Assembly (NCBI GenBank): GCA_964609395.1
Contig: CAZSRU010000001.1
Span: 7,324-71,323, forward strand
Direction: 5' to 3'
Length of the DNA stretch: 64,000 nt
DNA from: an uncultured Victivallales bacterium
Lineage (GTDB): Bacteria > Verrucomicrobiota > Kiritimatiellia > UBA8416
Shown here: one piece after another, positions 35,754 to 64,000 of the stretch
Layout of the letters: every line of letters begins with the position of its first letter
How positions within the stretch are numbered: the stretch's first letter is position 1
Program-made: the position numbers and the translations under genes
Notes under the pieces: generated by a model
Databases searched by the model: none
What the model saw: the letters and a program-made list of their open reading frames with translations, nothing else
What the model was told of the DNA's origin: nothing

Positions 35754-37985
35754 TCATAAGGCGGCTGCCCGTGCCCGCATCGAAAGTTGGTCTGTCTTTT
35801 GGATCCAGTCGCGAAGGGCATCGGCAGAAAGGAGGGTGTCGCCAGCCGGTGTCTGCTTATCGGAGATGGCTTGCCGCCCCATCCACGCCATGACGGTTGC
35901 CGCTGGTTCCTTCGCGATCAGTCGCGTAAGCGTCTGTATCCGGTATTGTTCCAGTGGCAACTGCGCTCGCCAGTACGAATCACTTTCCATTTGCGAAAGC
36001 AGTTGGTCAATACGCCCGTAGGCCTCGTTTTGTATCAACCGGTCCATCACGGCATCTGCCGTGGCCAGCATCAGTGCTTTCGGCGGCTTGGCTGGCGCTG
36101 GGCGAGGGTGGACTGTCGGTTGTGTCGCCAGTGCCGTTAAATCGGGAACCAGAATTTCAAATAGCGTTGTCAGCAAGGCGTCGCCAGAAGGTCCGCAGGT
36201 TTGCCGCCAGCGCCTGATGGCTTCCTTGTGCTGGCCTTGCCGCATGGCAATCGCGGCCCACAACGGTGTCGATTCAGGCCAGATGCCGGCCCACTCGGAA
36301 TGGGTGTTCAGCGTCCGTAGTATCTGATCGGCATCGCGGTCGCGCTCCATGCTTAAGAGCACTCGCGCTTGCCCCAGCATGGCTTGAGCCAGGGTTGAAC
36401 TCTTGTCGCCCGCCTTCTGTGAATGTAAGCTTGCCAACAGGATTGCATGCCTGTAATACGTTTCAGCCGCGGCTGGCAGCGAAAGTTCCTCAAGCCGTTG
36501 GGCGGTGATCAGAAGGCCCTCGGAGCTGCGCTCATCCTGCGGGAATCGCATCGTGGCGTCGATCGCACTTCCAACCAGGCCGGCGGTGGCGTTCGGATCC
36601 TTGGCCAGTGCTTTTAAAAGGCTGTGGCGGGCATGGGTGTCCAATGGTTTGTCTGTGTTTAGCGATATCAGTTTGTAGAGATACCGGACCTGTGCATCGA
36701 GATTACCGCGTCTGGCTGCTAGATCGGCTTGCACTTCAAATTCCTTGGCTGGATTCGTCGCCTTGCTGGCTTGCGCCTGCGCTGCTGCCAGATAGCGTTC
36801 GGCTCGATCCAGTTCATCACGTCCTATTGCCGTTCTGGCGGCACGAACCAGGATGTTGTAGGGCTCTGCTTGCCCAGGCTTCAGCATGCCTAGCTGTCGA
36901 TCAAGCGTTGAGAGGAGTTGGCCTACCCGCGCGGTATCGGTTGTGGACGCGAGTTCATGGCCCAGATCGATCAGAGCCGTTTCCTGTAGATGCGTGTCGG
37001 CGAACATCAGCAGTCTGGCAGCGGCGACATCCTCGATGGATCGTTCCTGCCGCAGCAAGGCAAGCAGACGCTGCGCGGCCTGCCGGCGGCCGGGTGCAGA
37101 GGTGTTGTAGGCCGCTCGCTGAAGAGCGGTAATGGCTTGACTCGTGTTGTTGCTTCTGATGGCGATTTGGGCGAGAATGATCTGCGATTCCTGCATTATC
37201 TGCGAGTTGTTGCTTTGCGCCAATGTGTTGGCGTTCTCGGTCAGTTGCTGTTTTATCTGATCCCGTTTCTCACTGGGTGTTGCCCCTTCGAAATGTGAAC
37301 TGAGCGCATCGAACCATTTCTGGTTTGTGTATATCCGCCAAAGCACTCTGGTCTCACCGTGCAATGCCTTGGTTTGCTGTTCCCCGATCTCGGCAGTTGG
37401 CTTGAGCGCACGAAGGCTTGCATAGGCCGGGGCGGCGTACCCAAAGTCAAATAAGACCTGGAATTCGAGCAGGTTCAAGTCAAATGGCAGTTTGCCTTGG
37501 TCGCGAACCCTCGCGAGAATGCGATTCGCATGCTGTAGGGATTGCTGGTCGCGCAGTTTGCTGGCCAGTTGCAGGAAAACCGTTGCCAAATCGACCGCGA
37601 TGCAATCATCGATATCCTGTTTTACAAGCACGTCCGCGTAATTGGCCGCCATGCGATAACGCTGCCAAGCGGGGCGCCAGTTGTCATCTTTTAGCAGGAA
37701 TTTCGTCATGGCCATAATGGCGGTGTTCTTCTGTTTGGGCGTTTCTGCAATCTCAATGGCATCGCTAAAGAAGATGAAGGCCATGAGCGGATCATTCGCC
37801 TTGTCGCGTTTTTCTGCCCACTGTAGCATCAGAACGTCGGCGGGAGGCAGCTCTTGGATGATATAACGATGGACCATCACTCCGGTCATCGAGGTTGTAA
37901 ACGCCAGGCCGATGCCCATCATGGCCAGTGTAAGAAAAAGTGCGGAGCCTTGCTTCGCGCGAGAATGTCTATTGTGTGCTGTCAT
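35754..37985 (-). CDS. Large single-pass membrane protein with extended alpha-helical (TPR-like) repeats
   Basis: 743 aa; one N-terminal TM helix (ALFLTLAMMGIGLAFTTSMTGVMV) then an Ala/Leu/Gln/Arg-rich helical region. Confidence 0.55.
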   Translation of the reverse strand: MTAHNRHSRAKQGSALFLTLAMMGIGLAFTTSMTGVMVHRYIIQELPPADVLMLQWAEKRDKANDPLMAFIFFSDAIEIAETPKQKNTAIMAMTKFLLKDDNWRPAWQRYRMAANYADVLVKQDIDDCIAVDLATVFLQLASKLRDQQSLQHANRILARVRDQGKLPFDLNLLEFQVLFDFGYAAPAYASLRALKPTAEIGEQQTKALHGETRVLWRIYTNQKWFDALSSHFEGATPSEKRDQIKQQLTENANTLAQSNNSQIMQESQIILAQIAIRSNNTSQAITALQRAAYNTSAPGRRQAAQRLLALLRQERSIEDVAAARLLMFADTHLQETALIDLGHELASTTDTARVGQLLSTLDRQLGMLKPGQAEPYNILVRAARTAIGRDELDRAERYLAAAQAQASKATNPAKEFEVQADLAARRGNLDAQVRYLYKLISLNTDKPLDTHARHSLLKALAKDPNATAGLVGSAIDATMRFPQDERSSEGLLITAQRLEELSLPAAAETYYRHAILLASLHSQKAGDKSSTLAQAMLGQARVLLSMERDRDADQILRTLNTHSEWAGIWPESTPLWAAIAMRQGQHKEAIRRWRQTCGPSGDALLTTLFEILVPDLTALATQPTVHPRPAPAKPPKALMLATADAVMDRLIQNEAYGRIDQLLSQMESDSYWRAQLPLEQYRIQTLTRLIAKEPAATVMAWMGRQAISDKQTPAGDTLLSADALRDWIQKTDQLSMRARAAAL

Positions 37986-38781
37986 GCAAATCCAATCCTT
38001 CCCGTCGGCTGGAAACCTGAATGACGCTTAAAAGTTGCGATCGCTCGGCATTCCCTGTCAGGCGCTGACTTTGAATGCGTAGCGTGTCCGGGCTGTCGAG
38101 AACATCGACAAATGTGCCTGCGCCCGCTTCGAAATGCCTCCTGATCGCCGGCGTCTGCGCCAGGATGCAGAGTCGGCCGCCTTGCGCCGAGAGCCATCCT
38201 GCCCATGCGCACAGGCTGCGCATGGCCGTCATGTCGGCCTGCGTCGCGGGGGTCGTTTCAAGCGCAATCCATTTCTCATCGCGGGCGGCACGCAACAAGC
38301 GGGCGGCGTTGCGGGCCGTCAGCGTCCCGCGAAGACGGACGCGACGGAAGCGCCCGATTCGCCGCTCGTTGCCGCTGCCAGATGCTGGCGGATGGGCGGC
38401 TGCCTTTAAAAACATTTTCAGGGTACTTTGCAATTGCTCGGCCTGTACCGGTTTTTGAAGAACGCTGCTGATTGCCAGTGCTTGACGGCGTTCCTCGGAG
38501 ATGCATTCGGTTTCGGCCGTCATGCATACGACTGTGGTTTGATGGCCATTGCTGCGCATTTTCGCGATCACGTCGGTACCGTAGCCATCGGGAAGCCGAT
38601 AATCCATCAGTACCATTTGCGGCCCGAGACGTTCCCAGCTCGCTTCGGCCTCGCTGGCGCACTCGGCAACGTTAACGCTGCATGCCCCAGGAAACCGTTC
38701 CAGGGTTCTGCGCAAGGTGGCGGCCAGCAGTGGGTCGTCCTCCACCAGCAGGATGACGATACCGCACGCATCAGAAGTCAT
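37969..38781 (-). CDS. Response regulator with receiver domain fused to a STAS-like (anti-sigma-antagonist-like) C-terminal domain
   Basis: Receiver motifs (ILLVEDDPLLA, VLMDYRLPDGYG, TVVCMTA); the C-terminal 110 aa loosely match the SpoIIAA/STAS pattern (WIALETTPATQADMTAMRSL...AQGGRLCIL). Confidence 0.5.
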   Translation of the reverse strand: MTSDACGIVILLVEDDPLLAATLRRTLERFPGACSVNVAECASEAEASWERLGPQMVLMDYRLPDGYGTDVIAKMRSNGHQTTVVCMTAETECISEERRQALAISSVLQKPVQAEQLQSTLKMFLKAAAHPPASGSGNERRIGRFRRVRLRGTLTARNAARLLRAARDEKWIALETTPATQADMTAMRSLCAWAGWLSAQGGRLCILAQTPAIRRHFEAGAGTFVDVLDSPDTLRIQSQRLTGNAERSQLLSVIQVSSRREGLDLHDSTQ

Positions 38782-39310
38782 AACTGGCTCCTTCTGTGTA
38801 GCGTGGTATAATCAGCACGATACCGGCGGACAGTACGGCAGAGGGGCTTAGGCCATTGATTTGCTGTATCCATTTGGCCCGGTCCTTGTTGCCGTAGACC
38901 ATCGGGTTGGCGGCAATGCTCTCAAGGGTGTCGCCAGTCTGAACCTCGTAATATTCGAATGCTCCGCTACGCAAAAGACTCAATAAATGGTCTTTTCTCT
39001 TGATTTCTTTCCGACTTTCCTCCAGTTGCTTGTCGAGGCTCTCGATCTGCGCCTTCTGTTCATCTAGTCGGGTGTTCTGGATAGCGACTTCCGTCTGGCT
39101 TTGGCTTAACTGTGCGGTTGTGGCCTGTAGTTGCGTGGTCAGGCGTGTGACCTCTTCAAGCAGGGCTTGCGCTTGAAGGGCTCGCCGCTCCAGTGCGTTA
39201 AGACTGCTGGTGTCTGGCGCATTGGCCGAGGCCCAAAGCGCGACAGAGAGACTCAGGATTACAACGCTGGGTACGATCCATTGACGGTTACATTTTCCGG
39301 TGCCATTCAT
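38771..39310 (-). CDS. Secreted/anchored coiled-coil protein with C-terminal LysM peptidoglycan-binding domain (start moved to ATG 39310, RBS AAGGAA)
   Basis: Signal-anchor, long coiled coil, LysM motif YYEVQTGDTLESIAA...INGLS. Confidence 0.65.
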   Translation of the reverse strand: MNGTGKCNRQWIVPSVVILSLSVALWASANAPDTSSLNALERRALQAQALLEEVTRLTTQLQATTAQLSQSQTEVAIQNTRLDEQKAQIESLDKQLEESRKEIKRKDHLLSLLRSGAFEYYEVQTGDTLESIAANPMVYGNKDRAKWIQQINGLSPSAVLSAGIVLIIPRYTEGASYDF

Positions 39311-39362
39311 ATCGATATTCCTTACCATGTCCGAGCGGAGTCAATCGTGGTCTCGATTTGCT

Positions 39363-39423: not shown

Positions 39424-40800
39424 TCAGATAGTTATGCTGTGATCCTTGATTTTTCTTAGCAAGGAACTGCGATGGATTTTTAGAATTTCGGCCGCTTGGC
39501 CGCGATGTCCGCTCACGTCGCGCAAAACACGCATAATCAACTGTCGTTCGCATTCGGCAAGGCTCATGGATGGAATCTCAGAGGTCTGACCGGTGGGGGG
39601 CTGTGTTTTGGCCGGTGTTGCTTGTTTGCCGTTTGGAATGGCAAGATCCTTGGCATCAATCTCGTTGCCTGTACACAGAATGACGCCGCGTTCGATCGAA
39701 TGGCGCAGCTCACGGACGTTCCCTGGCCAGTCATAAGCGCAAAGTGCTTCCATGGCCGCCGTCGTGAATCCACTAAGGTGGCTGCCTGCTGTTTTTTTGT
39801 GATGATTGAGGCACTGTTCCGCAAGCTTTGGAATACTTTCCGGGTGCTCACGCAGCGGCGGCAGGGTCAGGGGGAAGACCGACAAACGGTAATAGAGATC
39901 CTCGCGGAACGTACCATCCTTTACCATTTCCTGTAGATTGCGGCAGGTGGCGGCGACGATGCGCACATCCACCTGAATGACTCGGCTCCCGCCTAAACGG
40001 CGGAATTGCTTGTCCTCGATCACCTTTAGCAGTTTCGCCTGCAGAGCGGGGGCCATATCGCCGATCTCATCGAGGAAAACCGTGCCGCCATCGGCGATTT
40101 CAAGCAAACCGGGTTTGCTGACCTTGGCATCAGTGAAGGCACCTTTCTCATAACCGAAAACCTCGCTTTCCATCAACGGCCCCGGAATCGCCGAGCAATT
40201 GATGTCGACAAACGGCTTCGCGGCACGTGCGCTGAGGCGATGCACGGCAGACGCCATCATTCCTTTTCCAGTTCCGCTTTCCCCTAAAAGCAGCACCGTC
40301 GTGTCGGGGAAGGCGGCAATGCGCTGTACTTTTGTAAAGAGATCACGCAGGGCTCCGCCGCCAATCATCTCGTCGAGCTGCCAGACGTCGCCGCCGGAAC
40401 CGGTCGATAGCCGCGCGAGTCCCTCCACGCGCTCTTCCATGTTGACCGCTTTCTCAACATTACGGATGATTTTCTCAAGTTGCTCGTTTTCGTACGGTTT
40501 AGGTAAGTAGTCGTAGGCCCCGCTGCGAATGGCTTGAATGGCTGATCTGACATCGCTGTGGCCGGTTACAAAAACAACGTAAGCTCCCTTTGATAAGCCG
40601 TTGATCTCTTCAAGGAAATGGAAACTGTCGCCGTCGGGTAATCGCCGGTCAAGAAAGATCAGCTTGAATTGATTATCCTTCAGTCGGCTGCGTGCTTCGC
40701 TTAACGAATCGCAGGCTTTGACGTCGTGGCCTTTGCGCTTTAAAAGGTCAAACATGACCTTGCGCTGGATTTCGTCATCTTCAACGATTAGAATATCCAT
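39424..40800 (-). CDS. sigma54-dependent response regulator (NtrC/FlgR-family, second copy)
   Basis: Receiver + AAA+ (GESGTGKG) + GAFTDA + C-terminal HTH. Confidence 0.9.
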   Translation of the reverse strand: MDILIVEDDEIQRKVMFDLLKRKGHDVKACDSLSEARSRLKDNQFKLIFLDRRLPDGDSFHFLEEINGLSKGAYVVFVTGHSDVRSAIQAIRSGAYDYLPKPYENEQLEKIIRNVEKAVNMEERVEGLARLSTGSGGDVWQLDEMIGGGALRDLFTKVQRIAAFPDTTVLLLGESGTGKGMMASAVHRLSARAAKPFVDINCSAIPGPLMESEVFGYEKGAFTDAKVSKPGLLEIADGGTVFLDEIGDMAPALQAKLLKVIEDKQFRRLGGSRVIQVDVRIVAATCRNLQEMVKDGTFREDLYYRLSVFPLTLPPLREHPESIPKLAEQCLNHHKKTAGSHLSGFTTAAMEALCAYDWPGNVRELRHSIERGVILCTGNEIDAKDLAIPNGKQATPAKTQPPTGQTSEIPSMSLAECERQLIMRVLRDVSGHRGQAAEILKIHRSSLLRKIKDHSITI

Positions 40801-41552
40801 TATGGTGTTGCCCTTTCTGCGGCATCAGACGGCGGCATCGGCATGGTCGGGCAAGATAACGTCACGGTCCATTCGTTTGCTCGGCATGGCGCCAGTTCCG
40901 CTGTGCAATCACCGCCGGTGAGGCGGGCCAGGCGTTGCGCCAACGCAAGCCCCAGGCCGAGGTGGCGTGGTCGTGTTGTGTAAAAAGGTAGAAAAGCCTG
41001 ATCTCGCAGGGCGGCGTCGATGCCAGGCCCCGAATCGGACACGGTCCATGCGATGCCGTCTTCGTTCGCCTGTAGGTGCAGGCCGACAATACCGCGCGGC
41101 ACAGCCTCGCAGGCGTTGGTCAGGAGTTCCTGCAAGGCGATTCGCATGATCGACGGCGCGGCTGTTGCCGCGTCACCCTGTTGGCGGATCTCTACATTCG
41201 GGAAACGGCGGGCTACGGCCGCCATGGCTTCTGCGGTTATGTCGGATACGAACTCTGGCCGAATCGCGGGGTCGCGTTCCCAGTACAGGCTGAATCGATT
41301 GGCCATATCGGTTAGCGAATCACACTCCCGGAGCATTAAGGGAAAGTACTCGCGAAGATCGGGAGCAAGGGCGCTTCCTGCATCGGATTCGATGAGGTTC
41401 ACGGCCCCGCTGATGCCTGAGGCGATGTTCCGCAGACGGTGCCGCAGCACATGCGACATGCGCTCTAAGTCGTCGGTGCTTAAATGGGGTGGAGTAACTG
41501 AAATCATTGTTTTTCTTATACAACTCGTGTCGGGCGGTGTCAAGAAAGTCAT
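40800..41552 (-). CDS. Soluble histidine kinase (FlgS-like, no TM segments)
   Basis: 250 aa; HisKA H-box (SHVLRHRLRNIASG) and HATPase_c (GLGLALAQRLARLTGG). Confidence 0.8.
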   Translation of the reverse strand: MTFLTPPDTSCIRKTMISVTPPHLSTDDLERMSHVLRHRLRNIASGISGAVNLIESDAGSALAPDLREYFPLMLRECDSLTDMANRFSLYWERDPAIRPEFVSDITAEAMAAVARRFPNVEIRQQGDAATAAPSIMRIALQELLTNACEAVPRGIVGLHLQANEDGIAWTVSDSGPGIDAALRDQAFLPFYTTRPRHLGLGLALAQRLARLTGGDCTAELAPCRANEWTVTLSCPTMPMPPSDAAERATP

Positions 41553-41561
41553 TTTTCGTGA

Positions 41562-43475
41562 TCACAGCGTGGCGTGCCACAGGCACAAGTTCACGATCGG
41601 CCATAGTTTCATGGGGTGGACCGTCATGCTGCCGTTCAGCCAGGCATCAACCGCGATCGGGTTGAATAGCGTGTGCCGAAGGGGCGATGTCGCAATTGCC
41701 TCCCTGATCATGGGATTCATCCACGTGTCCATCCAGTCGAAAACAGGCACGGGGAAGCTCATCTTCGGGCGCTGCAGGATCGACGTCGGGACCGAATCGG
41801 TATAGGCGTGGCGTAGCAGCCGTTTGGATTCGATCAGATCCTGTTGTACAATCTCCATCACGTTCAGCCCCTGCGCGGCAATCGCACCAGCCGGTTGCCG
41901 CCAGTCCAGGCGGTAGGTGTCCGGCAGCGAGAATGCAAAATCAACCAGCCGGTGATCGGTAAACGGGACGCGCGCCTCGACGGATGCGGCCATGGAACTG
42001 GAGTCCACCCGCAGGAGCAAGCCTTCGAGGTTGACGCGCAGGTGGGCAAGCATGATGCGGTCCAGGGTGGATGCATCCGGGTGGCGGCTGTAGAGTTGCT
42101 GATAGAAGGCTCGGATGGCATGGTCGTTGTGCAGGCTGGCCGTGATATCCGGATGCATCCAGAGTTGCTTCTCCGGCGTGGACATCCAGGTGTTCAGCAG
42201 CAGGTGCTGGGTGGCCAGATCCGGCAGGTGCGCTTGTCCATAGCCGCGCAGTAGCGCCTGATCGGTCGCATTCATACCTGACTCAGGCTTTGGTGAGCGC
42301 GAAGCCCGGTCGAAGTCATGGGCCGCGAAATAGGCAATCGTGTAACCGCCGAAGATCTCGTCGGCACCTTCGCCGCTCAAGGCCACCGTGTATTCCTCGC
42401 GCAGTGCTTTTGAAAGCATGTAGATCGGCACTTCGTTAGGGGTGGTGAGAGGGAGACCGTTCTGGCGTATCAAAAAATCCCACAATGCGGGGTAATCGGC
42501 CGAGTCAAGCGTGATTTTGCGGCACTTCATACGGTAGGCGTCAGCCGCCTCTTTCACATACGGGAATTCGTTGAACCCGGGTTGCGCGTAGCCCACGTTA
42601 TAGGCGTGAAAGTGGTTGTCCGTGAGGGTGCTGGCCTGTTCTGCAATAATGGTTGAATCCAGGCCGCCGCTGAGAAAACCGCCCAGCGGAACGTCGCTGA
42701 TCAGGCGCAGCCGTACCGCCTCCTTGATCAAGTCGCGCGTTTCTTCGGCCGCCGCTTCCAGTGAGAGCCGTGATTTGTCCTGCGGTGCAGGGCAGGATGG
42801 TGCCCAATAGCAGCCGCCATGCTGCCCGCCGCTCGCGTCGATGCGCATCCAGTGGCCGGGTTCCAGCAAGTGCACGCCGCTGAGCAGGGTATCCTGCCCG
42901 AGATTAACCCGTATGGTGGATAGGTAGTGGGAGGCGGCCGAAGCGTCAAGTGCGGGTTTTTCCGGCAGCAGGGCCAGCAATGCGCGCATCGACGAGGCAA
43001 AACAGAACGTCTTGCGTTGCTGTGCCCAGAATAGCGGCTTTACGCCCAGTCGGTCGCGGGCCAGGAAGAGTGCGCGGTGGCGGGGGTCATAAATGGCGAA
43101 GGCAAACATGCCGAGGAGTCGGTAAATGCAGGCCGTGTCCCACTCCAGAAAGGCGTGCAGCAGCACTTCGGTGTCCGAATGGGTTTGAAATGCGTGTCCC
43201 GCGGCTTGCAGCTCGGTGCGCAATTCCCGGTAATTGTAAATCTCTCCATTAAAGACGATTACCGATCCGGTTTGCGGATCCACCAGCGGCTGGTGCCCGC
43301 CGTCGATGTCGATAATGGCCAGGCGTCGGTGCGCAAGCCCTATGCGGTCTGTGTGGAATTGCCCCTGATCGTCCGGGCCGCGCAAGGCCATGCAATCGGC
43401 CGCATCCTGAAGCCGCGGCAGCCACTGCTCGCAAGGAAGTGCGGTGGGGGAGGCGTAGCCGGCAATACCGCACAT
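41562..43475 (-). CDS. Asparagine-synthetase-family glutamine amidotransferase, PseA-like candidate flagellin-glycan modification enzyme (start moved to MCGIAG ATG 43475, RBS AGGAG)
   Basis: N-terminal Ntn Cys (MCGIAGY), PP-loop SGGLDSS; adjacent to fliD and flagellin. Confidence 0.75.
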   Translation of the reverse strand: MCGIAGYASPTALPCEQWLPRLQDAADCMALRGPDDQGQFHTDRIGLAHRRLAIIDIDGGHQPLVDPQTGSVIVFNGEIYNYRELRTELQAAGHAFQTHSDTEVLLHAFLEWDTACIYRLLGMFAFAIYDPRHRALFLARDRLGVKPLFWAQQRKTFCFASSMRALLALLPEKPALDASAASHYLSTIRVNLGQDTLLSGVHLLEPGHWMRIDASGGQHGGCYWAPSCPAPQDKSRLSLEAAAEETRDLIKEAVRLRLISDVPLGGFLSGGLDSTIIAEQASTLTDNHFHAYNVGYAQPGFNEFPYVKEAADAYRMKCRKITLDSADYPALWDFLIRQNGLPLTTPNEVPIYMLSKALREEYTVALSGEGADEIFGGYTIAYFAAHDFDRASRSPKPESGMNATDQALLRGYGQAHLPDLATQHLLLNTWMSTPEKQLWMHPDITASLHNDHAIRAFYQQLYSRHPDASTLDRIMLAHLRVNLEGLLLRVDSSSMAASVEARVPFTDHRLVDFAFSLPDTYRLDWRQPAGAIAAQGLNVMEIVQQDLIESKRLLRHAYTDSVPTSILQRPKMSFPVPVFDWMDTWMNPMIREAIATSPLRHTLFNPIAVDAWLNGSMTVHPMKLWPIVNLCLWHATL

Positions 43476-43491
43476 GGGGACGCTCCTGCCG

Positions 43492-44967
43492 TTACTTGCT
43501 GCCGTTGAGCTGGCCCAACAGGAATTCGAACCCCGACTGCATTTTGCCGATGGCCTCATCCATGGCACCGAACTGACGCCAGAGCATCGCTTCTTTCATC
43601 TCCAGTTCCCGCGTCATGCGGTCAATCCGTTCGTCCTGGCGAGTGATCTCATCATTGATATTCTCAATGCCGACATCAATCCATCCGTCGAGCTCCGAGG
43701 CGTAATTCTTGGTTTCCGTATAAATGGAAAGGGCGATGCCGCCTTCGCGTACGCCGGCCTGTGTTTCGGAGGGAACGCCCCGGAAAAGATTTTCAACCTC
43801 AGTGGGATATTGCTCCAACATGGCATCGAGGCGTTCTTCGTCGATAATGGCCAAGCGGTTCTGTTCTCCCTGGGTCCAGATACCGATGTGTTGGAGAGAA
43901 TCCATGACTCCCTGTGCCCCGTTGAACGAATACCCTGCATTATCAGCCGTGTGGGTACTGTTCATCAGTTGCCCGGCCAACCCACGCAATTTATAGGTGA
44001 TTTCGCGCATCATACTGTTGTCTTGCAGCATGCCAGGTAAAGGGTTCGATGGATCGCTGCGATCCCAGGTCCCGTAGAACTCATTGACTTCCGCAGCCGT
44101 GTTGTAGGCTTCTATGAAGGTGTTGATCGACTCCTTGATCGCGGCATTATCCCGCCCCACCTTGATTTCGCTGTATCCGGTGTCGTACAAGTTCAGCGTG
44201 ACGCCGTCGACAATATCGGATAGACCGGTGTTGGACGAGCGGGTAACCGTGGCACCATTCACCTTGAATTCGGCATTCTGGGCGGATAGCAATTCGTTGG
44301 TGACCGTGCCAAAGGCGTCCAGGACGCCGAGGCTGAGCAGAGGGGTTCCGGCCGTGTCGGAGATGGAAATGGTATCCGAGCCAGTGTTGACACGCTGAAG
44401 GACGAGCCGATTATCAAGGATCGATGCGGTCACTTGGTCGGCTTCCGGCATAAGCTCGGTGGCCGCATTGATTTTGTCGCGTAGCGAGGACAGGGTTTCC
44501 GTATTACTGATGGTAAAGGTCTGGCCGCCGATGGCGAACTGGTCTCCGAGGCTGACGCCGGCAATGGTGGTCAGGAGCGTGGAGGAGGTCACGGGGGCCC
44601 CCCCCGAGTCGGTCAGTCCGGTAGCGGAGGCAATCGTTTGTGCGCGAGCCAGTTGCGTGACTTCTATCGTATAGGTATTGGCGGCGGCATTGGCGGCGGC
44701 GGTGGCGGTCGCCACTGAGGAATCGGTGCTAGTGGACGCCATTTTACGCCAGACATCCATCCAGCGCAGGCTGTCGGAGGCGCGCGTCAGGGCGCTAAGG
44801 TTGTCCTTTACATCAATCCATGCCGTGACCTTATCATTGCGCAAGGACTGTTCGTCCTGCACTTTTTTAACGCGGCTGCCTTCCATCTCCATGATTTTGG
44901 CGATGGTGGCACCTACATCGAACCCGGAAGCGAGTCCGCTGATACGAAAATCGGGTGTAACACTCAT
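43492..44967 (-). CDS. fliD: Flagellar filament cap protein FliD
   Basis: 491 aa; N-terminus ISGLASGFDVGATIAKIMEME and coiled-coil C-terminus typical of FliD. Confidence 0.9.
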   Translation of the reverse strand: MSVTPDFRISGLASGFDVGATIAKIMEMEGSRVKKVQDEQSLRNDKVTAWIDVKDNLSALTRASDSLRWMDVWRKMASTSTDSSVATATAAANAAANTYTIEVTQLARAQTIASATGLTDSGGAPVTSSTLLTTIAGVSLGDQFAIGGQTFTISNTETLSSLRDKINAATELMPEADQVTASILDNRLVLQRVNTGSDTISISDTAGTPLLSLGVLDAFGTVTNELLSAQNAEFKVNGATVTRSSNTGLSDIVDGVTLNLYDTGYSEIKVGRDNAAIKESINTFIEAYNTAAEVNEFYGTWDRSDPSNPLPGMLQDNSMMREITYKLRGLAGQLMNSTHTADNAGYSFNGAQGVMDSLQHIGIWTQGEQNRLAIIDEERLDAMLEQYPTEVENLFRGVPSETQAGVREGGIALSIYTETKNYASELDGWIDVGIENINDEITRQDERIDRMTRELEMKEAMLWRQFGAMDEAIGKMQSGFEFLLGQLNGSK

Positions 44968-44982
44968 GGTGCTGATGTGGCT

Positions 44983-44998
44983 AGCAGGGTTAATGCCA
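44983..44998 (-). promoter_or_regulatory. sigma54 promoter TGGCATtaaccCTGCT upstream of fliD (-12 C is 17 nt before the ATG)
   Basis: Exact -24/-12 spacing; core GCTAGCAGGGT shared with the LysM-operon promoter. Confidence 0.6.
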
Positions 44999-45002
44999 TG
45001 GA

Positions 45003-45035
45003 GGATTATGGAAAAAAAAACGGGACGCCGTTCAG
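45003..45035 (-). terminator. Rho-independent terminator of flagellin 1 (8-bp GC stem CGGGACGC/GCGTCCCG followed by T9 on the minus strand)
   Basis: Perfect inverted repeat followed by a 9-nt U-tract in the transcribed orientation. Confidence 0.8.
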
Positions 45036-45058
45036 AGCGTCCCGCTTATGCCACTTAT

Positions 45059-45111: not shown

Positions 45112-46050
45112 TTAACCGATCAACTGCAGCACGCTCTGCGGCAAGGCGTTTGCCTGTGCCAGCATAGCGGTACCGACCTGCGTCAGGATCTGCTGCTTCA
45201 TGAAGTTCGTGGATTCCAAGGCCATATCCGTGTCGCGGATCTGGCTCTCAGCACCCATGATGTTCTCCTGATAGCTGCGGATACCTTCCAGCGAATGGCC
45301 AAGCCGACTGGCCTCGGCACCCAGCGTCGCCCGCGCCTTGCTGAGGTGGTCGACCGCCAGTTTCAGCACGGCGGTTGCGCGCTGCGCACCTGCCATGGTC
45401 GAAATCTGGATGCCGCCACCGATGTCCGAGATTCCGCGTGCAAGCACCATCGACCAGTGGATTTCCTGCTGAGTCGTTACCGCGCCGACACCCGCGAACT
45501 GACCGCACGAGAACGTGATGAACGTTTCGCCGAGAACGGCCGTGCTGTTGGCATGCAGTGCCAGCGACGTTCCGCAGAACAACTGTCCCGGATCCGCGCC
45601 GACCTGAGTGACCAAACCATTGCTACCCTGGAACAAATTGGCTGTGTTGAATTTACCGCGCGCCAAACTGCCGGTTGTGATTCGTGTGATTTCCGCCTGC
45701 ATCTGCTCAAATTCCACCTGCAGATTGTCGCGGTCCGTCTGTGTTTTCGTTCCATCGGCCGATGCCACGGCGAGTTCGTTCATCCGGTGCACCATATCGT
45801 GGATCTTCTGCATCCAGGAATCCGCCGTACGCATGTAAGCCTGGGCATTCTGGATGTTCTGAGCCGCCATGCTCGAATTGCGGATCTGCGAACGCATACG
45901 TTCGCTCATCGCCAAGCCAGCCGGATCATCCGACGCCGTCGTGATGCGCAAACCGCTGGACAGCTTGCTCATCGATGAGCGCATGCTATTCACGCTGGAC
46001 GCATAGTTAACCCACACACCGAACGCGGGAACGTTATTGTATACTTGCAT
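45112..46050 (-). CDS. fliC: Flagellin (short D0-D1 type), paralog 1 (start at MQVYNN ATG 46050, RBS GGAGG)
   Basis: Flagellin N-terminus (KLSSGLRITTASDDPAGLAMSERMRSQIRN) and C-terminus (STNFMKQQILTQVGTAMLAQANALPQSVLQLIG). Confidence 0.9.
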   Translation of the reverse strand: MQVYNNVPAFGVWVNYASSVNSMRSSMSKLSSGLRITTASDDPAGLAMSERMRSQIRNSSMAAQNIQNAQAYMRTADSWMQKIHDMVHRMNELAVASADGTKTQTDRDNLQVEFEQMQAEITRITTGSLARGKFNTANLFQGSNGLVTQVGADPGQLFCGTSLALHANSTAVLGETFITFSCGQFAGVGAVTTQQEIHWSMVLARGISDIGGGIQISTMAGAQRATAVLKLAVDHLSKARATLGAEASRLGHSLEGIRSYQENIMGAESQIRDTDMALESTNFMKQQILTQVGTAMLAQANALPQSVLQLIG

Positions 46051-46537: not shown

Positions 46538-47062
46538 ATGAACACGAAGTCGATATACGAAGACGCGATTGTTGTTAAACCTTATTCGAGGCTGGTCTCC
46601 TTGACGATCCGGCCGGAGCATGTATTCCATCTCCCGCAAGGCCTGCCTGCCTTTGAGGGATTCAAGAATTACATTTTCACGATCAAGCCGGATACCAGTC
46701 CATTTATTTTCATGCAATCAATTGAGCCCGCCGGCCTTTCGTTTGTCTGTATTGACCCCTTCCTGGTGTATCCGGATTATGCGCCCCGTATCGGGACCGC
46801 CGACCAGGATCTTCTTCGTCTTGCCCGCCCGGAAGCGCTGATGTTGTTAAGCATCGTGACCGTGCGCGCCGATGAACGCGAAACAACGGCGAATCTACAG
46901 GGACCCCTGGCGATCAATATTGAAAACTCGATCGGCAAGCAGATTCTCTGCGATGGGCAGACTTATCCGGTGCGGTATAGGATCTGGGATGCCATCAGCC
47001 AGGACGAAACGACGCTCGATCAGGCTTCCGTGCGGTACGGCATTGAGTATGCTAGCGCATAG
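46538..47062 (+). CDS. fliW: Flagellar assembly factor FliW (CsrA antagonist); start moved to MNTKS ATG 46538 (RBS GAGGGA)
   Basis: FliW-family sequence (FEGFKNYIFTI...LLSIVTVRAD...TANLQGPLAINI) directly upstream of csrA. Confidence 0.85.
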   Translation: MNTKSIYEDAIVVKPYSRLVSLTIRPEHVFHLPQGLPAFEGFKNYIFTIKPDTSPFIFMQSIEPAGLSFVCIDPFLVYPDYAPRIGTADQDLLRLARPEALMLLSIVTVRADERETTANLQGPLAINIENSIGKQILCDGQTYPVRYRIWDAISQDETTLDQASVRYGIEYASA

Positions 47063-47132: not shown

Positions 47133-47366
47133 ATGCTAGTACTGACAAGGAAGTTGGAAGAGAGCGTGATGATCGGCACGGACATCGAGGTGCGCGTACT
47201 GGGGGTACATGGCGATCAGGTGCGATTGGGTTTTTCGGCACCTAAAACGGTTTCGGTTTTCCGCAAGGAAGTGTTCGATGCGATTCAGGAGGAAAATCGG
47301 CAGGCGGCCAGTCCGGACAAGGTTGGACTGGCGGCGTTTGCCGAATCGTTTAAACGACGGGGTTAA
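47133..47366 (+). CDS. csrA: Carbon storage regulator CsrA
   Basis: MLVLTRKLEESVMIGTDIEVRVLGV...VRLGFSAPKTVSVFRKEV matches CsrA almost residue-for-residue. Confidence 0.95.
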   Translation: MLVLTRKLEESVMIGTDIEVRVLGVHGDQVRLGFSAPKTVSVFRKEVFDAIQEENRQAASPDKVGLAAFAESFKRRG

Positions 47367-59845: not shown

Positions 59846-60001
59846 ATGAAAGCATTCGTTAAGCGGGAAGAGAATTTGAAATCCAAGGTGACGGTCAAGA
59901 AAAGCACGGTGGCTACCGACTGCTTGCAACAGGCAGCCGATTGGCTGGGGCTTTACAGTCGTATTCTTGAGAACCTACAGGTGGCGAGGGCCGCCCGGTG
60001 A
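59846..60001 (+). CDS. Small 51 aa ORF with strong RBS (AGGAGG), stop overlapping the GTG start of the next gene
   Basis: GGAGG 7 nt upstream of the ATG; GTGA overlap with the HAD-like gene; below the ORF-track size cutoff. Confidence 0.35.
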   Translation: MKAFVKREENLKSKVTVKKSTVATDCLQQAADWLGLYSRILENLQVARAAR

Positions 60002-60714
60002 AGACCCCCGGCGAGAATGCAGCTTTGCATGCATCCCGCTCAGCATCTCCAACGGTCATTTGCTGGCTGGATGATGTGCTTTATCCCGCGCGCATGTATC
60101 ATGAAGGTGCCTGTCGCGCCGGGGCGGGATTGCTGCGTCACCTGATCGGTGTCGATATGCATGACGCCCTTTCGGTCTGCTACGTTCCGGGACGAGAAGA
60201 GGATACGGTACGCAAGGTCCTTTCAGGCGTCGGCACGAAAACCGATGAACGGCTCGTCCGCAAGGTTGCCGAGGCCATGGCTGTGCATACACCGCAGGTT
60301 TCCCCCTATGCGGATGCGCTTGAGACCTTTGGGATTCTACAGGCGCTCGGGGTTTCGCTCTGGTTGCTTGGCGAAGGACCGCCACGCGCACAGCGCTTGG
60401 TTGCTGATCGACTGGGGCTTGGCCGCGTGTTTCAGGGGGTGGCTTATTCGGATCCTCACCAGAGTAAATACGAATGGCAGGATTCTCTGATGCTACTGGA
60501 GCTCGCCGCCGGCGTGGAGGCCGATCAGTCCGTGCTGGTGTGTGCCGATCCGGTCCGCGTGGCCGCCATCGCGAAGCAGGGCAGGCGTGTCTATTACCTT
60601 GATCGAAAGGCGGATCCGATCGCCCGCCGCCCGCCGGTTCCTAACGTGATCCCGATGCTGAACCTATACGACCTGCCGGAGGCGCTGGGGTTAGTGGCCT
60701 GGGATCGGAATTGA
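59998..60714 (+). CDS. HAD-superfamily-like hydrolase (degenerate motifs)
   Basis: N-terminal VICWLDDVLYP (motif I-like) and C-terminal VLVCADPVRVAAIAKQG (motif IV-like). Confidence 0.45.
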   Translation: MKTPGENAALHASRSASPTVICWLDDVLYPARMYHEGACRAGAGLLRHLIGVDMHDALSVCYVPGREEDTVRKVLSGVGTKTDERLVRKVAEAMAVHTPQVSPYADALETFGILQALGVSLWLLGEGPPRAQRLVADRLGLGRVFQGVAYSDPHQSKYEWQDSLMLLELAAGVEADQSVLVCADPVRVAAIAKQGRRVYYLDRKADPIARRPPVPNVIPMLNLYDLPEALGLVAWDRN

Positions 60715-60837: not shown

Positions 60838-60853
60838 TGGCACGCATATTGCA
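60838..60853 (+). promoter_or_regulatory. Consensus sigma54 promoter TGGCACGcataTTGCA upstream of rpoN, preceded by a ~60 nt AT-rich tract
   Basis: Perfect match to TGGCACG-N4-TTGCA; 53 nt upstream of the rpoN ATG. Confidence 0.7.
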
Positions 60854-60904
60854 TTGGTAATCATCAACGAAGTGTTGTTAACTACTCTTTGATTGGTGGG
60901 AACC

Positions 60905-62465: not shown

Positions 62466-63182
62466 ATGAATGTAGCCATTATACCTGCACGCGGTGGCAG
62501 TCAACGGATTCCACTCAAGAATATCCGTGAGTTCTGCGGGAAACCGATGCTGGCCTGGTCGATAGAAGCGGCGCTGCAGAGCCGTTGTTTCGCGCGCGTT
62601 ATCGTTTCAACCGATAATCAGGAAATCGCCGATGTGGCCAGGCATTATGGTGCTGAAGTCCCGTTTCTACGGCCGCGTTTGCTGGCCGATGCACACACGG
62701 GATTAGAGGCCGTGATCTGGCACGGGGTTGAATGGCTGGATGCGGCAGGCATGGATCTGAACTATGTCTGCTGTGTTTTTGCAACCGCGCCATTCCTGAC
62801 ATCCGCGGCACTGCGGGACGGCTTGGCTGCTCTAGAGCAGGCTCCGCTCCGCCAGTTTTCAATTTCCGTGACCAGCTATCCATTCCCGGTTCAACGTGCC
62901 GTCCGGATAACCGCCGATGCCTGCATCGAGCCCTTGTATCCTGAATTCATGAAAACCCGGTCGCAGGATTTGGAAAGCGCGTTTCACGAGGCCGGTCAGT
63001 TTTTCTGGGCACGGCCAGAGGCGCTTCGCCAGCGACTATCGGTCTATGCGCCGGGCGCGTCGGCACCGGTTGTGATTCCGCGTTGGCGGGTCCAGGATAT
63101 TGACACCATGGAAGACTGGGCGCAGGCGGAGCTCCTCTTCCGCGCATTAAGGACGGTGCCGGATGATGCGAATTGCATTTAG
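62466..63182 (+). CDS. pseF: CMP-nonulosonic acid synthetase (NeuA/PseF-like acylneuraminate cytidylyltransferase); start moved to ATG 62466
   Basis: N-terminal nucleotide-binding motif VAIIPARGGSQRIPLKNI and the CMP-NeuAc synthetase fold. Confidence 0.75.
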   Translation: MNVAIIPARGGSQRIPLKNIREFCGKPMLAWSIEAALQSRCFARVIVSTDNQEIADVARHYGAEVPFLRPRLLADAHTGLEAVIWHGVEWLDAAGMDLNYVCCVFATAPFLTSAALRDGLAALEQAPLRQFSISVTSYPFPVQRAVRITADACIEPLYPEFMKTRSQDLESAFHEAGQFFWARPEALRQRLSVYAPGASAPVVIPRWRVQDIDTMEDWAQAELLFRALRTVPDDANCI

Positions 63183-64000
63183 AACCGATGCTTCTGTCAA
63201 GATCGGGGTCGGGCATGTGGTTCGTTGCCTGAATCTCGCTCGGGCATTGCGTGCGCAAGGGGAGCAGGTTTCATTCCTGTGCCGGGAGACCGAGGGGCAT
63301 GCCGGAGCGCTGATTGCCGAAAACGGTTTTCCAGTACATCTGCTTCCGGTAACGGACGGCGGCGGGATACATCATCCGCATGGGCAGGGTGCCTGGGGGC
63401 GGCGCGAGGCGTTGATGGATGTCGAGGCTTGTTGCTTGCATCTGAAAGAGCAGATGGATTGGCTTGTCGTTGATCATTACGGTTTGGACGTCTGCTGGGA
63501 AACGGCAATACGAGCCAAGGCGGCGCGGATCATGGTCATTGATGATCTTGCCGACCGCCCGCACGATTGTGAGCTGTTGCTTGATCAGAATCTCCTGCCG
63601 TCACTTGAAACACGCTACCTCCAGCGCGTGCCCACGCACTGTCGTTACCTTTTGGGTCCCGGTTATGCATTGCTCGATGACGCCTTCGGCAGGTTGGCCT
63701 GCCAGGCAGGCGTACGTCACCATGTGCAGCGCCTGCTAGTATTCTTTGGTGGGGGGGATGAAGGCAACCTGACCGCCCGTGCATGGCGTGAATTGGATGA
63801 ACTCGGGCTTGAAGGCGATGTTGTCGTCGGTAGAGCAAATCCTCATCTGCCCGAGGTGGAGTCGCTTTGCAATAAAAATGCGTCTCGCTGGACGCTGCAT
63901 GTGCAGACAAGACAAATGGCGGAATTGATGCTGCAAGCCGATTTGATGGTTGGTGCAGGCGGCTCCACGCACTGGGAACGCTGCCTGCTCGGGTTGCCTT
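63163..64000 (+). CDS. pseG: PseG-like UDP-sugar hydrolase (UDP-2,4-diacetamido-2,4,6-trideoxyhexose hydrolase), 3' partial at window end
   Basis: N-terminus MRIAFRTDASVKIGVGHVVRCLNLARAL and C-terminal GAGGSTHWERCLLGLP match the PseG family; overlaps the pseF stop by 20 nt. Confidence 0.75.
   Translation, partial: MMRIAFRTDASVKIGVGHVVRCLNLARALRAQGEQVSFLCRETEGHAGALIAENGFPVHLLPVTDGGGIHHPHGQGAWGRREALMDVEACCLHLKEQMDWLVVDHYGLDVCWETAIRAKAARIMVIDDLADRPHDCELLLDQNLLPSLETRYLQRVPTHCRYLLGPGYALLDDAFGRLACQAGVRHHVQRLLVFFGGGDEGNLTARAWRELDELGLEGDVVVGRANPHLPEVESLCNKNASRWTLHVQTRQMAELMLQADLMVGAGGSTHWERCLLGLP

What the first reader, a model, noticed from the sequence alone, without database searches (positions are those of the whole stretch)
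41562..43475. PseA-like amidotransferase next to fliD and flagellin points to acetamidino-pseudaminic acid on flagellin
An asparagine-synthetase-family gene (MCGIAG Ntn nucleophile, PP-loop) sits inside the filament gene cluster. In Campylobacter the homologous PseA makes the acetamidino derivative of pseudaminic acid for flagellin glycosylation. Together with the maf, pseF and pseG homologs in this window, it predicts O-glycosylated flagellin.
Basis: partly seen in the sequence, partly recalled or inferred. Interest (0 to 1): 0.5.

Follow-up and report, generated by a model that had tools for sequence, protein, structure and literature searches.

The report
Flagellum-linked AsnB-type amidotransferase, not PseA
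A real asparagine-synthetase-family gene sits directly behind the flagellar cap gene fliD and keeps company with flagellin or flagellin-sugar genes in several bacterial phyla, so it probably modifies the flagellin sugar coat, but it is not related to the Campylobacter enzyme PseA and its product is unknown.

Summary
Window 41562-43475 (-) encodes a 637-aa class-II glutamine amidotransferase with an Asn_synthase domain, an MCGIAG N-terminus and an SGGLDS PP-loop. It starts 16 nt after fliD, in a cluster with two flagellins, fliW, csrA, maf and fliS. PseF and PseG are verified at the window end.

The claim of PseA homology fails. PseA is annotated as an N-acetyl sugar amidotransferase (NASAT family). 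The target gives no sequence match to NASAT and lacks its four-cysteine motif.

Of 48 species-level orthologue loci, 19 carry flagellin or FliD within 10 kb, against 0 of 32 loci of other AsnB-like paralogues. The arrangements differ between lineages:
- fliD-X
- fliD-fliS-X
- flbT-flaF-cheD-X
- maf-neuA-neuB-neuC-X
- flagellins divergent from X

Partner sugar genes are Pse-type here and Neu/Leg-type elsewhere.

Best reading: a flagellar-regulon amidotransferase that modifies the flagellin nonulosonic-acid glycan. A COOH-to-CONH2 conversion is most likely, as with the WbpS/WbqG uronamide enzymes. Rivals are amidine formation (a PseA analogue), housekeeping Asn synthesis, and modification of protein or peptidoglycan. 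I rate it a new member of a known kind, of moderate interest.

The parts
41562..43475 (-). AsnB-family glutamine amidotransferase ('AsnBL'), 637 aa: Ntn glutaminase domain plus PP-loop synthetase domain
   Evidence: Pfam GATase_7 and Asn_synthase; TIGR01536 413 bits against a cut-off of 267.
43457..43475 (-). Start codon and MCGIAG; Cys2 becomes the N-terminal nucleophile
   Evidence: C2 is invariant in 21 orthologues.
42654..42671 (-). PP-loop SGGLDS (aa 269-274), the ATP pyrophosphatase motif
   Evidence: Invariant in alignment A1.
42357..42377 (-). SGEGADE motif (aa 367-373), equivalent to human ASNS Ser362-Glu368, which binds AMP and the substrate
   Evidence: PMC6748925.
41997..42020 (-). 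LLLRVDSS (aa 486-493). Arg489 aligns with E. coli AsnB R387. Leu486 occupies the position of human Asp-400, part of the pocket for the alpha-amino group of aspartate
43476..43491 (-). 16-nt fliD-AsnBL spacer containing the AGGAG ribosome-binding site; no terminator
43492..44967 (-). fliD (filament cap), first gene of the inferred fliD-AsnBL-HK-RR operon
   Evidence: FliD_N, FliD_C.
44983..44998 (-). Sigma-54-like element TGGCATTAACCCTGCT, 16 nt upstream of the fliD ATG (weak evidence, inferred)
   Evidence: The pattern count over the window is only marginally above chance.
45018..45047 (-). Strong intrinsic-terminator-like hairpin (12 pairs plus a T-run) between the flagellin gene and fliD
45112..46050 (-). 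Flagellin paralogue A (312 aa from the ATG)
46538..47062 (+). fliW
   Evidence: 86% identity to FliW of L001, which carries PF02623.
47133..47366 (+). csrA
47562..48503 (+). Flagellin paralogue B (313 aa, about 84% identical to A)
49057..50871 (+). Maf-type (MptE-like) putative flagellin nonulosonic-acid glycosyltransferase
   Evidence: PF01973, E 6e-33. One search gives only a weak PseD-like match.
50885..51325 (+). fliS (flagellin chaperone)
40800..41552 (-). Small cytoplasmic histidine kinase starting 9 nt after the AsnBL stop codon
   Evidence: Orthologues lie next to AsnBL in 7 other species loci.
39424..40800 (-). Sigma-54-dependent response regulator (FlrC/FleR-like) overlapping the end of the HK gene
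62466..63182 (+). pseF (CMP-pseudaminic acid synthetase)
63163..64000 (+). pseG (runs off the window). On the source contig it is followed by pseI, an ATP-grasp ligase and a HAD hydrolase

Best explanation
AsnBL is a catalytically intact AsnB-family amidotransferase that depends on glutamine and ATP. It is expressed with the late flagellar genes as part of an inferred fliD-AsnBL-HK-sigma54 RR operon.

**Chemistry shown by sequence.** The Ntn glutaminase domain should release NH3 from glutamine. The PP-loop domain should adenylate an oxygen of the acceptor, and NH3 should then displace AMP.

**Acceptor (inferred).** The acceptor is the nonulosonic-acid glycan that Maf puts on flagellin. It could be the free or CMP-activated sugar, an acyl substituent on it, or the sugar already attached to flagellin.

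**Most likely reaction (inferred).** COOH to CONH2, as in every AsnB-family enzyme I know to be characterised, including the sugar uronamide enzymes WbpS and WbqG. This would remove the negative charge of the sugar or its substituent on the filament surface.

AsnBL is not a PseA (NASAT) homologue.
For: **Intact catalytic apparatus**
- Cys2, the R50/R51 pair aligned with E. coli AsnB Arg49, N76-G77-E78, D101, SGGLDS, SGEGADE, R489 and EARVPF are all present. They are invariant in 21 orthologues of 44-85% identity.

**Operon structure**
- The gap to fliD is 16 nt with an SD sequence, and the gap to the HK gene is 9 nt.
- A terminator is found only upstream of fliD.

**Recurrent neighbourhoods in different arrangements**
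- fliD-X in Kiritimatiellota: L001, L004, L009, L011, L007, L029 and L031-L034.
- fliD-fliS-X in a Methylomarinum MAG (L038).
- Flagellin-like gene, flbT, flaF, cheD, then X, then a sigma-54 RR, with a GT41 and a Sel1 protein nearby. L046 is annotated by Pfam; L047, L049, L050 and L052 share the flagellin-like, FlbT, FlaF and GT41 matches.
- Three flagellin genes divergent from X in L045.
- X as the last gene of maf-neuA-neuB-neuC operons in L006, L008, L019, L022 and L030. GT or NeuD-like genes are inserted in L014, L024, L025, L033 and L036.

**Statistics**
- Flagellin or FliD lies within 10 kb in 19/48 species-level orthologue loci, against 0/32 loci of other AsnB-like paralogues (Fisher p=2e-5).
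- Flagellar or NulO/glycosyltransferase genes are present in 27/48 against 2/32.

**Precedent**
- The AsnB-family protein WbpS (PGN_1234) is required for a glucuronamide in P. gingivalis. Its homologue WbqG is required for the uronamide form of N-acetylgalacturonic acid in E. coli O121 (PMC7468200).
- TIGR03108, the family those enzymes belong to, is the target's second-best NCBIfam match (374 bits).

**Departure from canonical AsnB**
- The AsnB equivalog NF006949 is failed (259 bits against a cut-off of 499).
- Leu486 replaces Asp-400/D384 of the alpha-amino pocket for aspartate.
Against: - No biochemical or genetic data exist, and the acceptor is inferred from gene context only.
- I know of no natural nonulosonic-acid carboxamide.
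- 19-21 of the 48 orthologue loci show no flagellar or glycan gene within 10 kb. One sits in the dcw/mur cell-wall cluster (L089). Another lies beside GT4 genes and a Wzm/Wzt-type exporter (L090).
- TIGR01536, which NCBI treats as an equivalog for asparagine synthase, is passed.
- The negative E/D/E cluster that binds aspartate in ASNS is retained.
- Species in the neighbourhood count are phylogenetically related, so the p-value overstates independence.
- The partner sugar pathways differ (Pse against Neu/Leg type). This fits a feature common to all NulOs, but it also fits a target that is not a sugar.
Confidence: 0.45

Rival explanations
1. Non-homologous functional analogue of PseA/PtmG. The PP-loop domain would adenylate the oxygen of an N-acetyl carbonyl on Pse (or on Leg/Neu in relatives). 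Glutamine-derived NH3 would then convert acetamido to acetamidino.
For: - No NASAT-type ORF (PP-loop plus four cysteines) is present in the window, on the 10 kb beyond pseF on the source contig, or in any orthologue locus.
- Related N-type ATP pyrophosphatases adenylate amide- or ureido-type oxygens (GMP synthetase, argininosuccinate synthetase). This is my own knowledge; PMC6748925 groups them structurally.
- Authors of the T. forsythia O-glycan cluster made the same untested proposal for the AsnB-like Tanf_01265 and Pse5Am7Gra (PMC6120980).
Against: - No AsnB-family enzyme is known to make an amidine.
- All known acetamidino sugars with assigned genes use NASAT enzymes (PMC10607449).
- From memory, the T. 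forsythia glycan also contains a ManNAc uronamide, which would explain its asnB more simply.
- Absence of a NASAT gene within 10-20 kb says little about the rest of the genome.
Confidence: 0.15
2. Ordinary housekeeping asparagine synthetase (glutamine-hydrolysing) that happens to be embedded in flagellar operons in these lineages, perhaps to supply Asn during filament synthesis.
For: - It passes TIGR01536, and all AsnB catalytic motifs are intact.
- Sources name its homologues asparagine synthase.
- Orthologues also occur in non-flagellar contexts.
Against: - It has been re-associated with filament or flagellin-glycosylation genes in at least five different gene orders across Kiritimatiellota, Verrucomicrobiota (Opitutales) and a gammaproteobacterium. 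The control is 0/32 other AsnB-like loci.
- It fails the AsnB equivalog NF006949.
- Sequence identity to E. coli AsnB is low, and only fragments of the synthetase domain align.
- Asp-400/D384 is replaced by Leu.
- The window's flagellins are not Asn-rich (5-7%).
Confidence: 0.13
3. Amidation of a non-sugar target. One option is side-chain or C-terminal carboxylates of flagellin or FliD. The other is peptidoglycan-precursor carboxylates (mDAP or iso-Glu), as with the long AsnB-type enzymes AsnB1 and LtsA, perhaps to ease flagellar passage through the wall.
For: - In the Pontiellaceae loci the gene lies between fliD and fliW with no sugar genes within 8-10 kb.
- One orthologue lies between murG-murC-ddl and mraZ-mraW-ftsI-murE.
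- AsnB-family enzymes acting on peptides exist. The lasso cyclase model NF033535 matches at 205 bits.
- Thiopeptide C-terminal amidation and mDAP amidation are further examples, from my own knowledge.
Against: - Only 1 of 48 loci is in a cell-wall cluster.
- No precedent exists for enzymatic amidation of flagellin.
- The frequent position as last gene of maf-neuA-neuB-neuC operons points to the sugar.
Confidence: 0.1

Closest known systems
WbpS / WbqG / PGN_1234 sugar uronamide-forming amidotransferases (AsnB family, NCBIfam TIGR03108 eps_aminotran_1)
   Same: - Same two-domain architecture: Ntn glutaminase plus PP-loop Asn_synthase.
- Encoded inside glycan biosynthesis loci.
- They convert a sugar carboxylate to a carboxamide, with genetic evidence in P. 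gingivalis and E. coli O121 (PMC7468200).
- TIGR03108 is the target's second-best NCBIfam hit (374 bits).
   Different: - The target scores far below the TIGR03108 cut-off (374 against 817), and the best stretch covers only aa 1-384. The C-terminal, substrate-side half is different.
- The context is flagellar filament and nonulosonic-acid genes, not O-antigen or EPS genes.
- The acceptor is unknown.
Asparagine synthetase B (E. coli AsnB, PDB 1CT9; human ASNS, 6GQ3)
   Same: - Same Pfam domains and the same catalytic residues.
- Passes the broad TIGR01536 model.
   Different: - Fails the AsnB equivalog NF006949 (259 against 499).
- About 80 residues longer.
- aa 383-486 do not align.
- Asp-400/D384 of the aspartate pocket is Leu.
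- Flagellar gene context.
TsnB9 hydroxyamidotransferase (PDB 7YLZ), the closest solved structure by sequence
   Same: - Best PDB hit (E 6e-63), with aa 1-379 aligned.
- Same fold family.
- An AsnB-like enzyme whose acceptor is not aspartate.
   Different: - TsnB9 is a secondary-metabolite enzyme (per my own knowledge, from trichostatin biosynthesis).
- The C-terminal half aligns only weakly (19 bits).
- There is no contextual similarity.
PseA / PtmG / WbpG / WbuX N-acetyl sugar amidotransferases (NASAT; PDB 8WEX)
   Same: - PP-loop SGGxDS and ATP-to-AMP+PPi chemistry.
- Modification of (nonulosonic) sugars with ammonia.
- Location in flagellin glycosylation loci in Campylobacter.
   Different: - No detectable sequence similarity.
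- No four-cysteine zinc motif.
- The target has its own fused glutaminase domain.
- NASAT enzymes make amidines from N-acetyl groups, whereas AsnB-family enzymes are known only to amidate carboxylates.
Tanf_01265 'AsnB' of the Tannerella forsythia protein O-glycosylation cluster
   Same: An AsnB-like gene encoded next to pse/leg genes in a protein O-glycosylation locus. Its authors proposed, without a test, that it forms the Am group on Pse (PMC6120980).
   Different: - 605 aa, in Bacteroidota, and serving S-layer rather than flagellin glycosylation.
- Its sequence relationship to the target was not tested here.
- Its function is also unproven.

Membership tests
PseA / NASAT (N-acetyl sugar amidotransferase; PDB 8WEX; NCBIfam accession TIGR03573 from my memory) | Sequence match to the family model or to the solved member | tested here: not met
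   No NASAT-type model is among the nine NCBIfam hits at E<=0.01. 8WEX is absent from the PDB hits even at E<=10.
PseA / NASAT | Conserved tetracysteine zinc motif CXXCXn[GN]XCXXC (PMC10607449) | tested here: not met
   The target has no CXXC at all.
PseA / NASAT | PP-loop SGGxDS | tested here: met
   SGGLDS at aa 269-274. This motif is shared by the whole ATP pyrophosphatase superfamily, so it does not discriminate.
PseA / NASAT | Single compact PP-loop protein without a fused glutaminase domain | tested here: not met
   The target has an N-terminal Ntn glutaminase domain (GATase_7, aa 49-168). The compact single-fold NASAT architecture is from PMC10607449; the absence of a fused glutaminase is my own knowledge.
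PseA / NASAT | Converts acetamido to acetamidino on Pse | not testable with these tools
   Needs glycan NMR or MS/MS, or an enzyme assay.
AsnB family (class-II glutamine amidotransferase + Asn_synthase; PF13537/PF00733; TIGR01536) | N-terminal Cys nucleophile and glutaminase residues (E. coli R49, N74, G75, E76, D98) | tested here: met
   MCGIAG, with HRRL, NGEIYN and SDTEV aligned to 1CT9. These are invariant in A1.
AsnB family | PP-loop, SGEGxDE and R..D/E.R.PF motifs of the synthetase domain; scores above the model cut-offs | tested here: met
   PF00733 E 5e-71. TIGR01536 413 bits against 267. Motifs.
Bona fide asparagine synthetase B (NF006949 equivalog) | Score above the equivalog cut-off | tested here: not met
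   259 bits against a cut-off of 499; the best stretch covers aa 1-169 only.
Bona fide asparagine synthetase B | Aspartate alpha-amino pocket Glu-364, Asp-367, Asp-400 (human numbering; PMC6748925) | tested here: inconclusive
   E369 and D372 are kept, but they belong to a motif that non-Asp enzymes such as TsnB9 also have. Asp-400 is Leu486, invariant in the orthologues.
Bona fide asparagine synthetase B | Makes Asn from Asp; complements an Asn auxotroph | not testable with these tools
   Needs experiments.
WbpS/WbqG sugar uronamide amidotransferases (TIGR03108) | Score above the TIGR03108 cut-off | tested here: not met
   374 bits against 816.9.
WbpS/WbqG sugar uronamide amidotransferases | Encoded within a glycan biosynthesis or glycosylation locus | tested here: met
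   In the window the gene lies in the same cluster as maf. Orthologues are the last gene of maf-neuA-neuB-neuC operons.
WbpS/WbqG sugar uronamide amidotransferases | Converts a sugar carboxylate to a carboxamide | not testable with these tools
   Needs a mutant plus the glycan structure.
Lasso-peptide / macrolactam cyclases (AsnB-like) | Score above the model cut-off; usually a degenerate glutaminase site | tested here: not met
   NF033535 scores 205 against 525 and NF033561 scores 58 against 300. The glutaminase site is intact.

The most novel reading that the evidence does not exclude
The enzyme makes a nonulosonic-acid derivative not yet described on any flagellin. One option is a C-1 (or acyl-substituent) carboxamide that neutralises the sugar. 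The other is an acetamidino group made by an AsnB-family enzyme instead of a NASAT, which would be a new reaction type for the family. Either way it would define a flagellin-glycan tailoring step conserved across Kiritimatiellota, Verrucomicrobiota (Opitutales) and some Proteobacteria, with motility-gene contexts in Lentisphaerota too.
Probability: 0.35. Interest if true: 0.6.

Novelty: new member of a known kind. Interest (0 to 1): 0.42.

Why it matters
Flagellin glycosylation with sialic-acid-like sugars controls filament assembly, surface charge, autoagglutination and phage or immune recognition. Its tailoring enzymes are known almost only from Campylobacter, Aeromonas and a few others.

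This gene is a recurrent and uncharacterised companion of fliD, flagellin regulators and maf/NulO operons in little-studied phyla (the PVC group). My literature searches found no paper linking an AsnB-family gene to flagellin glycosylation.

If it amidates the sugar, it would remove the one negative charge that defines these 'bacterial sialic acids'. It would also add a new tailoring reaction.

There are two practical points:
- Automated annotation as 'asparagine synthase' is probably misleading here.
- The PseA label should not be transferred to it.

Tried and rejected
1. **PseA homology.** Tested with NCBIfam, with PDB including the NASAT structure 8WEX at E<=10, and with a four-cysteine motif scan. 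Rejected.
2. **A NASAT gene nearby.** A motif scan of the window, all 90 loci and the source contig beyond pseF found none. This result does not decide anything.
3. **Asn supply for Asn-rich flagellins.** The flagellins contain 5-7% Asn, which is not unusual.
4. **Lasso or macrolactam cyclase.** Scores are below the cut-offs and the glutaminase site is intact.
5. **ATP-grasp and HAD genes after pseI as constant partners.** They are on the source contig but absent from all other orthologue loci. They remain only a local hint that the Pse carries an amide-linked acyl or aminoacyl group.
6. **GT41 (FlmG-like) next to the deltaproteobacterial orthologues.** The clustered protein is TPR-only, so those loci give no flagellar evidence.
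7. **Literature.** Four searches for AsnB or amidotransferase together with flagellin glycosylation or NulO found nothing relevant. The T. forsythia proposal came from a fifth search.
8. **Sigma-70 promoter and terminator scans.** Counts are not above chance, apart from the one strong hairpin after the flagellin gene. The sigma-54 pattern is only marginally enriched over the whole window, so the fliD promoter call is weak.
9. **Not run.** I did not predict a structure.
Full report
**Observation**

The minus-strand ORF ending at 41562 is real. Its longest form starts at GTG 43568, but the ATG at 43475 gives MCGIAG... (637 aa). That start is preceded by AGGAG and lies 16 nt after the fliD stop codon. 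Only this start leaves Cys as the N-terminal nucleophile.

Pfam finds GATase_7/GATase_6 (aa 34-168) and Asn_synthase (aa 246-634, E 5e-71). NCBIfam TIGR01536 is passed (413 bits against 267). The PP-loop SGGLDS, SGEGADE, R489 and EARVPF are present, as are the glutaminase residues aligned to E. coli AsnB. All are invariant in 21 orthologues of 44-85% identity.

The whole 64-kb window is a chemotaxis and flagellar supercluster. Around the gene lie:
- two 84%-identical flagellins, with fliW and csrA between them
- fliD
- maf (PF01973)
- fliS

PseF and PseG are verified at the window end. On the source contig (JGI 3300020048, 120.5 kb) they continue into pseI, an ATP-grasp ligase and a HAD hydrolase.

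**Is it PseA-like?**

No. pseA is annotated as an N-acetyl sugar amidotransferase (PMC6371046). That family (NASAT: WbpG, WbuX) includes two Campylobacter sequences in the alignment of PMC10607449. It is defined by a PP-loop plus a CXXC...CXXC zinc site in a compact single fold, with a solved member 8WEX.

The target differs on every discriminating point:
- No NASAT-type model is among its NCBIfam hits at E<=0.01.
- It does not hit 8WEX even at E<=10.
- It has no CXXC motif.
- It carries a fused Ntn glutaminase domain.

The two proteins share only the PP-loop superfamily. The best solved relative is the hydroxyamidotransferase TsnB9 (7YLZ, E 6e-63), followed by E. coli AsnB (5e-39).

**Is it linked to the flagellum?**

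Yes, and more widely than in this window. I collected orthologue contexts from exact-protein look-ups and from one scan of species-representative genomes (L009-L088). The closest relatives are uncultured Kiritimatiellota/Verrucomicrobiota MAGs, at 95% identity to JAIFLS01 bin_212.

Orthologues (at least 470 bits, 39-95% identity) occur in these arrangements:
- Directly after fliD in the window's clade and in Pontiellaceae, where the order is fliD-X-fliW-csrA-flagellin.
- After fliD-fliS in a Methylomarinum MAG.
- After a flagellin-like gene, flbT, flaF and cheD, and before a sigma-54 regulator, with a GT41 (FlmG-like) glycosyltransferase and a Sel1 protein nearby. L046 is annotated by Pfam, and four further Puniceicoccaceae/Opitutales species share the flagellin-like, FlbT, FlaF and GT41 matches.
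- Divergent from three flagellin genes in L045.
- Near a histidine kinase gene (with a likely sigma-54 regulator and cheY beside it, judged from clustering and sequence inspection) and motA-motB in Victivallis.
- As the last gene of maf-neuA-neuB-neuC operons in at least ten species.

With HMMs built from diverse flagellins and FliDs, 19/48 orthologue loci have such a gene within 10 kb. None of the 32 loci of other AsnB-like paralogues from the same scan does (Fisher p=2e-5). Counting NulO and glycosyltransferase genes as well gives 27/48 against 2/32. A small HK and/or a sigma-54 regulator lies within 1.5 kb in 14/48 against 1/32.

The species are related, so these are not independent events. 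Even so, at least five different gene orders argue for repeated selection of the linkage.

In the window, a strong hairpin with a T-run follows the flagellin gene, and no terminator separates fliD, AsnBL and the HK. A sigma-54-like TGGCAT-N5-CTGCT precedes fliD, but this evidence is weak.

**What does it act on?**

This step is inferred. In L008 the partner genes are NeuB_NnaB and NeuC_NnaA type, that is Neu/Leg-type, whereas the window has PseF/PseG/PseI. The enzyme is therefore not specific to Pse. If its target is the sugar, it must address a feature common to nonulosonic acids, or it acts after the sugar is transferred.

Every AsnB-family enzyme I know to be characterised amidates a carboxylate. 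AsnB-family enzymes in glycan loci (WbpS/PGN_1234, WbqG) make sugar uronamides, with genetic proof (PMC7468200). Their family, TIGR03108, is the target's second-best NCBIfam match but falls far below the cut-off.

I therefore favour COOH to CONH2 on the flagellin glycan. The site could be the C-1 carboxylate of the NulO. It could also be a free carboxyl on an amide-linked substituent; the ATP-grasp ligase after pseI hints that this organism's Pse carries one. That ligase is not a constant partner, however.

It has been proposed, untested, for an AsnB-like gene in T. forsythia (PMC6120980). I know of no precedent for it in this family.

**Housekeeping rival**

The protein passes the broad TIGR01536 model, and some orthologues lie in non-flagellar contexts. 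One is inside the dcw/mur cluster (L089). Another lies beside GT4 genes and a Wzm/Wzt-type exporter (L090).

Against this rival:
- It fails the AsnB equivalog NF006949.
- aa 383-486 do not align with AsnB.
- Leu486 replaces human Asp-400 (E. coli D384), one of three residues that form the pocket for the alpha-amino group of aspartate (PMC6748925).
- The flagellins are not Asn-rich.
- The neighbourhood signal is hard to explain for a housekeeping gene.

**Comparison and novelty**

AsnBL works like the WbpS/WbqG class of sugar amidotransferases and belongs to the AsnB superfamily. It is not a member of the curated AsnB, TIGR03108, TIGR03104 or lasso-cyclase subfamilies, and it is not a NASAT.

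Four literature searches found no paper connecting an AsnB-family gene with flagellin glycosylation.

I rate it a new member of a known kind: a glycan-locus AsnB-like amidotransferase in a new (flagellar) context, with an unknown acceptor.

By my own arithmetic, Pse5Am7Ac and a Pse5Ac7Ac carboxamide are isomers. Both are 0.984 Da lighter than Pse5Ac7Ac, at about 315.14 Da as a residue. Intact mass therefore cannot tell them apart.

**Verdict**

- Observation: confirmed.
- Interpretation: partly supported. The family call and the glycosylation context are right. The homology to PseA is wrong, and the acetamidino product is unproven.
- Interest: 0.42.

Noticed in passing
window 35754-39328 (-); also L007, L029-L034, L026, L053: Three genes recur in the flagellar loci of Kiritimatiellota and again near AsnBL where fliD is out of range. 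They are a 743-aa protein with no Pfam or NCBIfam hit (35754-37985), a response regulator with a weak STAS match (37969-38781), and a coiled-coil/LysM protein of 185 aa (38771-39328). They may be lineage-specific flagellar components or regulators.
   Followed up: partly
window 45112-46050 (-) and 47562-48503 (+): Both short flagellins (312 and 313 aa) carry two conserved cysteines in the central region (LFCG... and FSCGQFAG). This is unusual for flagellins and may indicate a disulfide or a modification site.
   Followed up: no
L091 12001-18024 (source contig beyond the window end); window 59998-60714: The pse operon continues as pseG-pseI, then an ATP-grasp ligase (PylC-like_N/ATPgrasp_Ter, 334 aa), then a HAD hydrolase. 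Two further paralogous HAD genes flank the region, one upstream of rpoN at window 59998-60714. This suggests a Pse derivative with an amide-linked acyl or aminoacyl substituent.
   Followed up: partly
window 60893-62443 and 62466: rpoN (sigma-54) lies immediately upstream of pseF, with a 22-nt gap. The sigma factor of the flagellar cascade and the flagellin-sugar operon are therefore adjacent. A perfect TGGCAC-N5-TTGCA match lies at 60838-60853, upstream of rpoN.
   Followed up: no
window 17326, 32645, 39363, 44983, 51655, 56425, 60838: Sigma-54-like TGGCA[CT]-N5-xTGCT elements lie in or near intergenic regions upstream of several flagellar operons. Over the whole window the enrichment is only marginal (51 matches against 39 +/- 6 expected).
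   Followed up: partly
window 20292-21050 (-) and 21026-21817 (-): Two tandem motB-like genes (both with a MotB_plug domain) follow motA (21814-22578). Only the first has a weak OmpA domain.
   Followed up: no
L002/L003/L010, downstream of AsnBL: In relatives of 67-68% identity the gene after fliD-AsnBL is not the HK. It is followed instead by an aldehyde dehydrogenase, a DHDPS/NanA-family aldolase, a polysaccharide pyruvyl transferase and an epimerase-methyltransferase fusion. These are further candidates for sugar tailoring.
   Followed up: no
L046, L047, L049, L050, L052 (Opitutales): A GT41-family TPR glycosyltransferase (FlmG-like) and a Sel1-repeat protein lie a few kb from the flbT-flaF-AsnBL group. 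These lineages may glycosylate flagellin with a FlmG-type enzyme rather than a Maf-type one.
   Followed up: partly
window 48542-49057 (+): A 171-aa ORF with no family hit lies directly upstream of maf. Its end overlaps the maf start. It is conserved in the same position in relatives (150-159 aa in L001, L004, L009 and L011).
   Followed up: no
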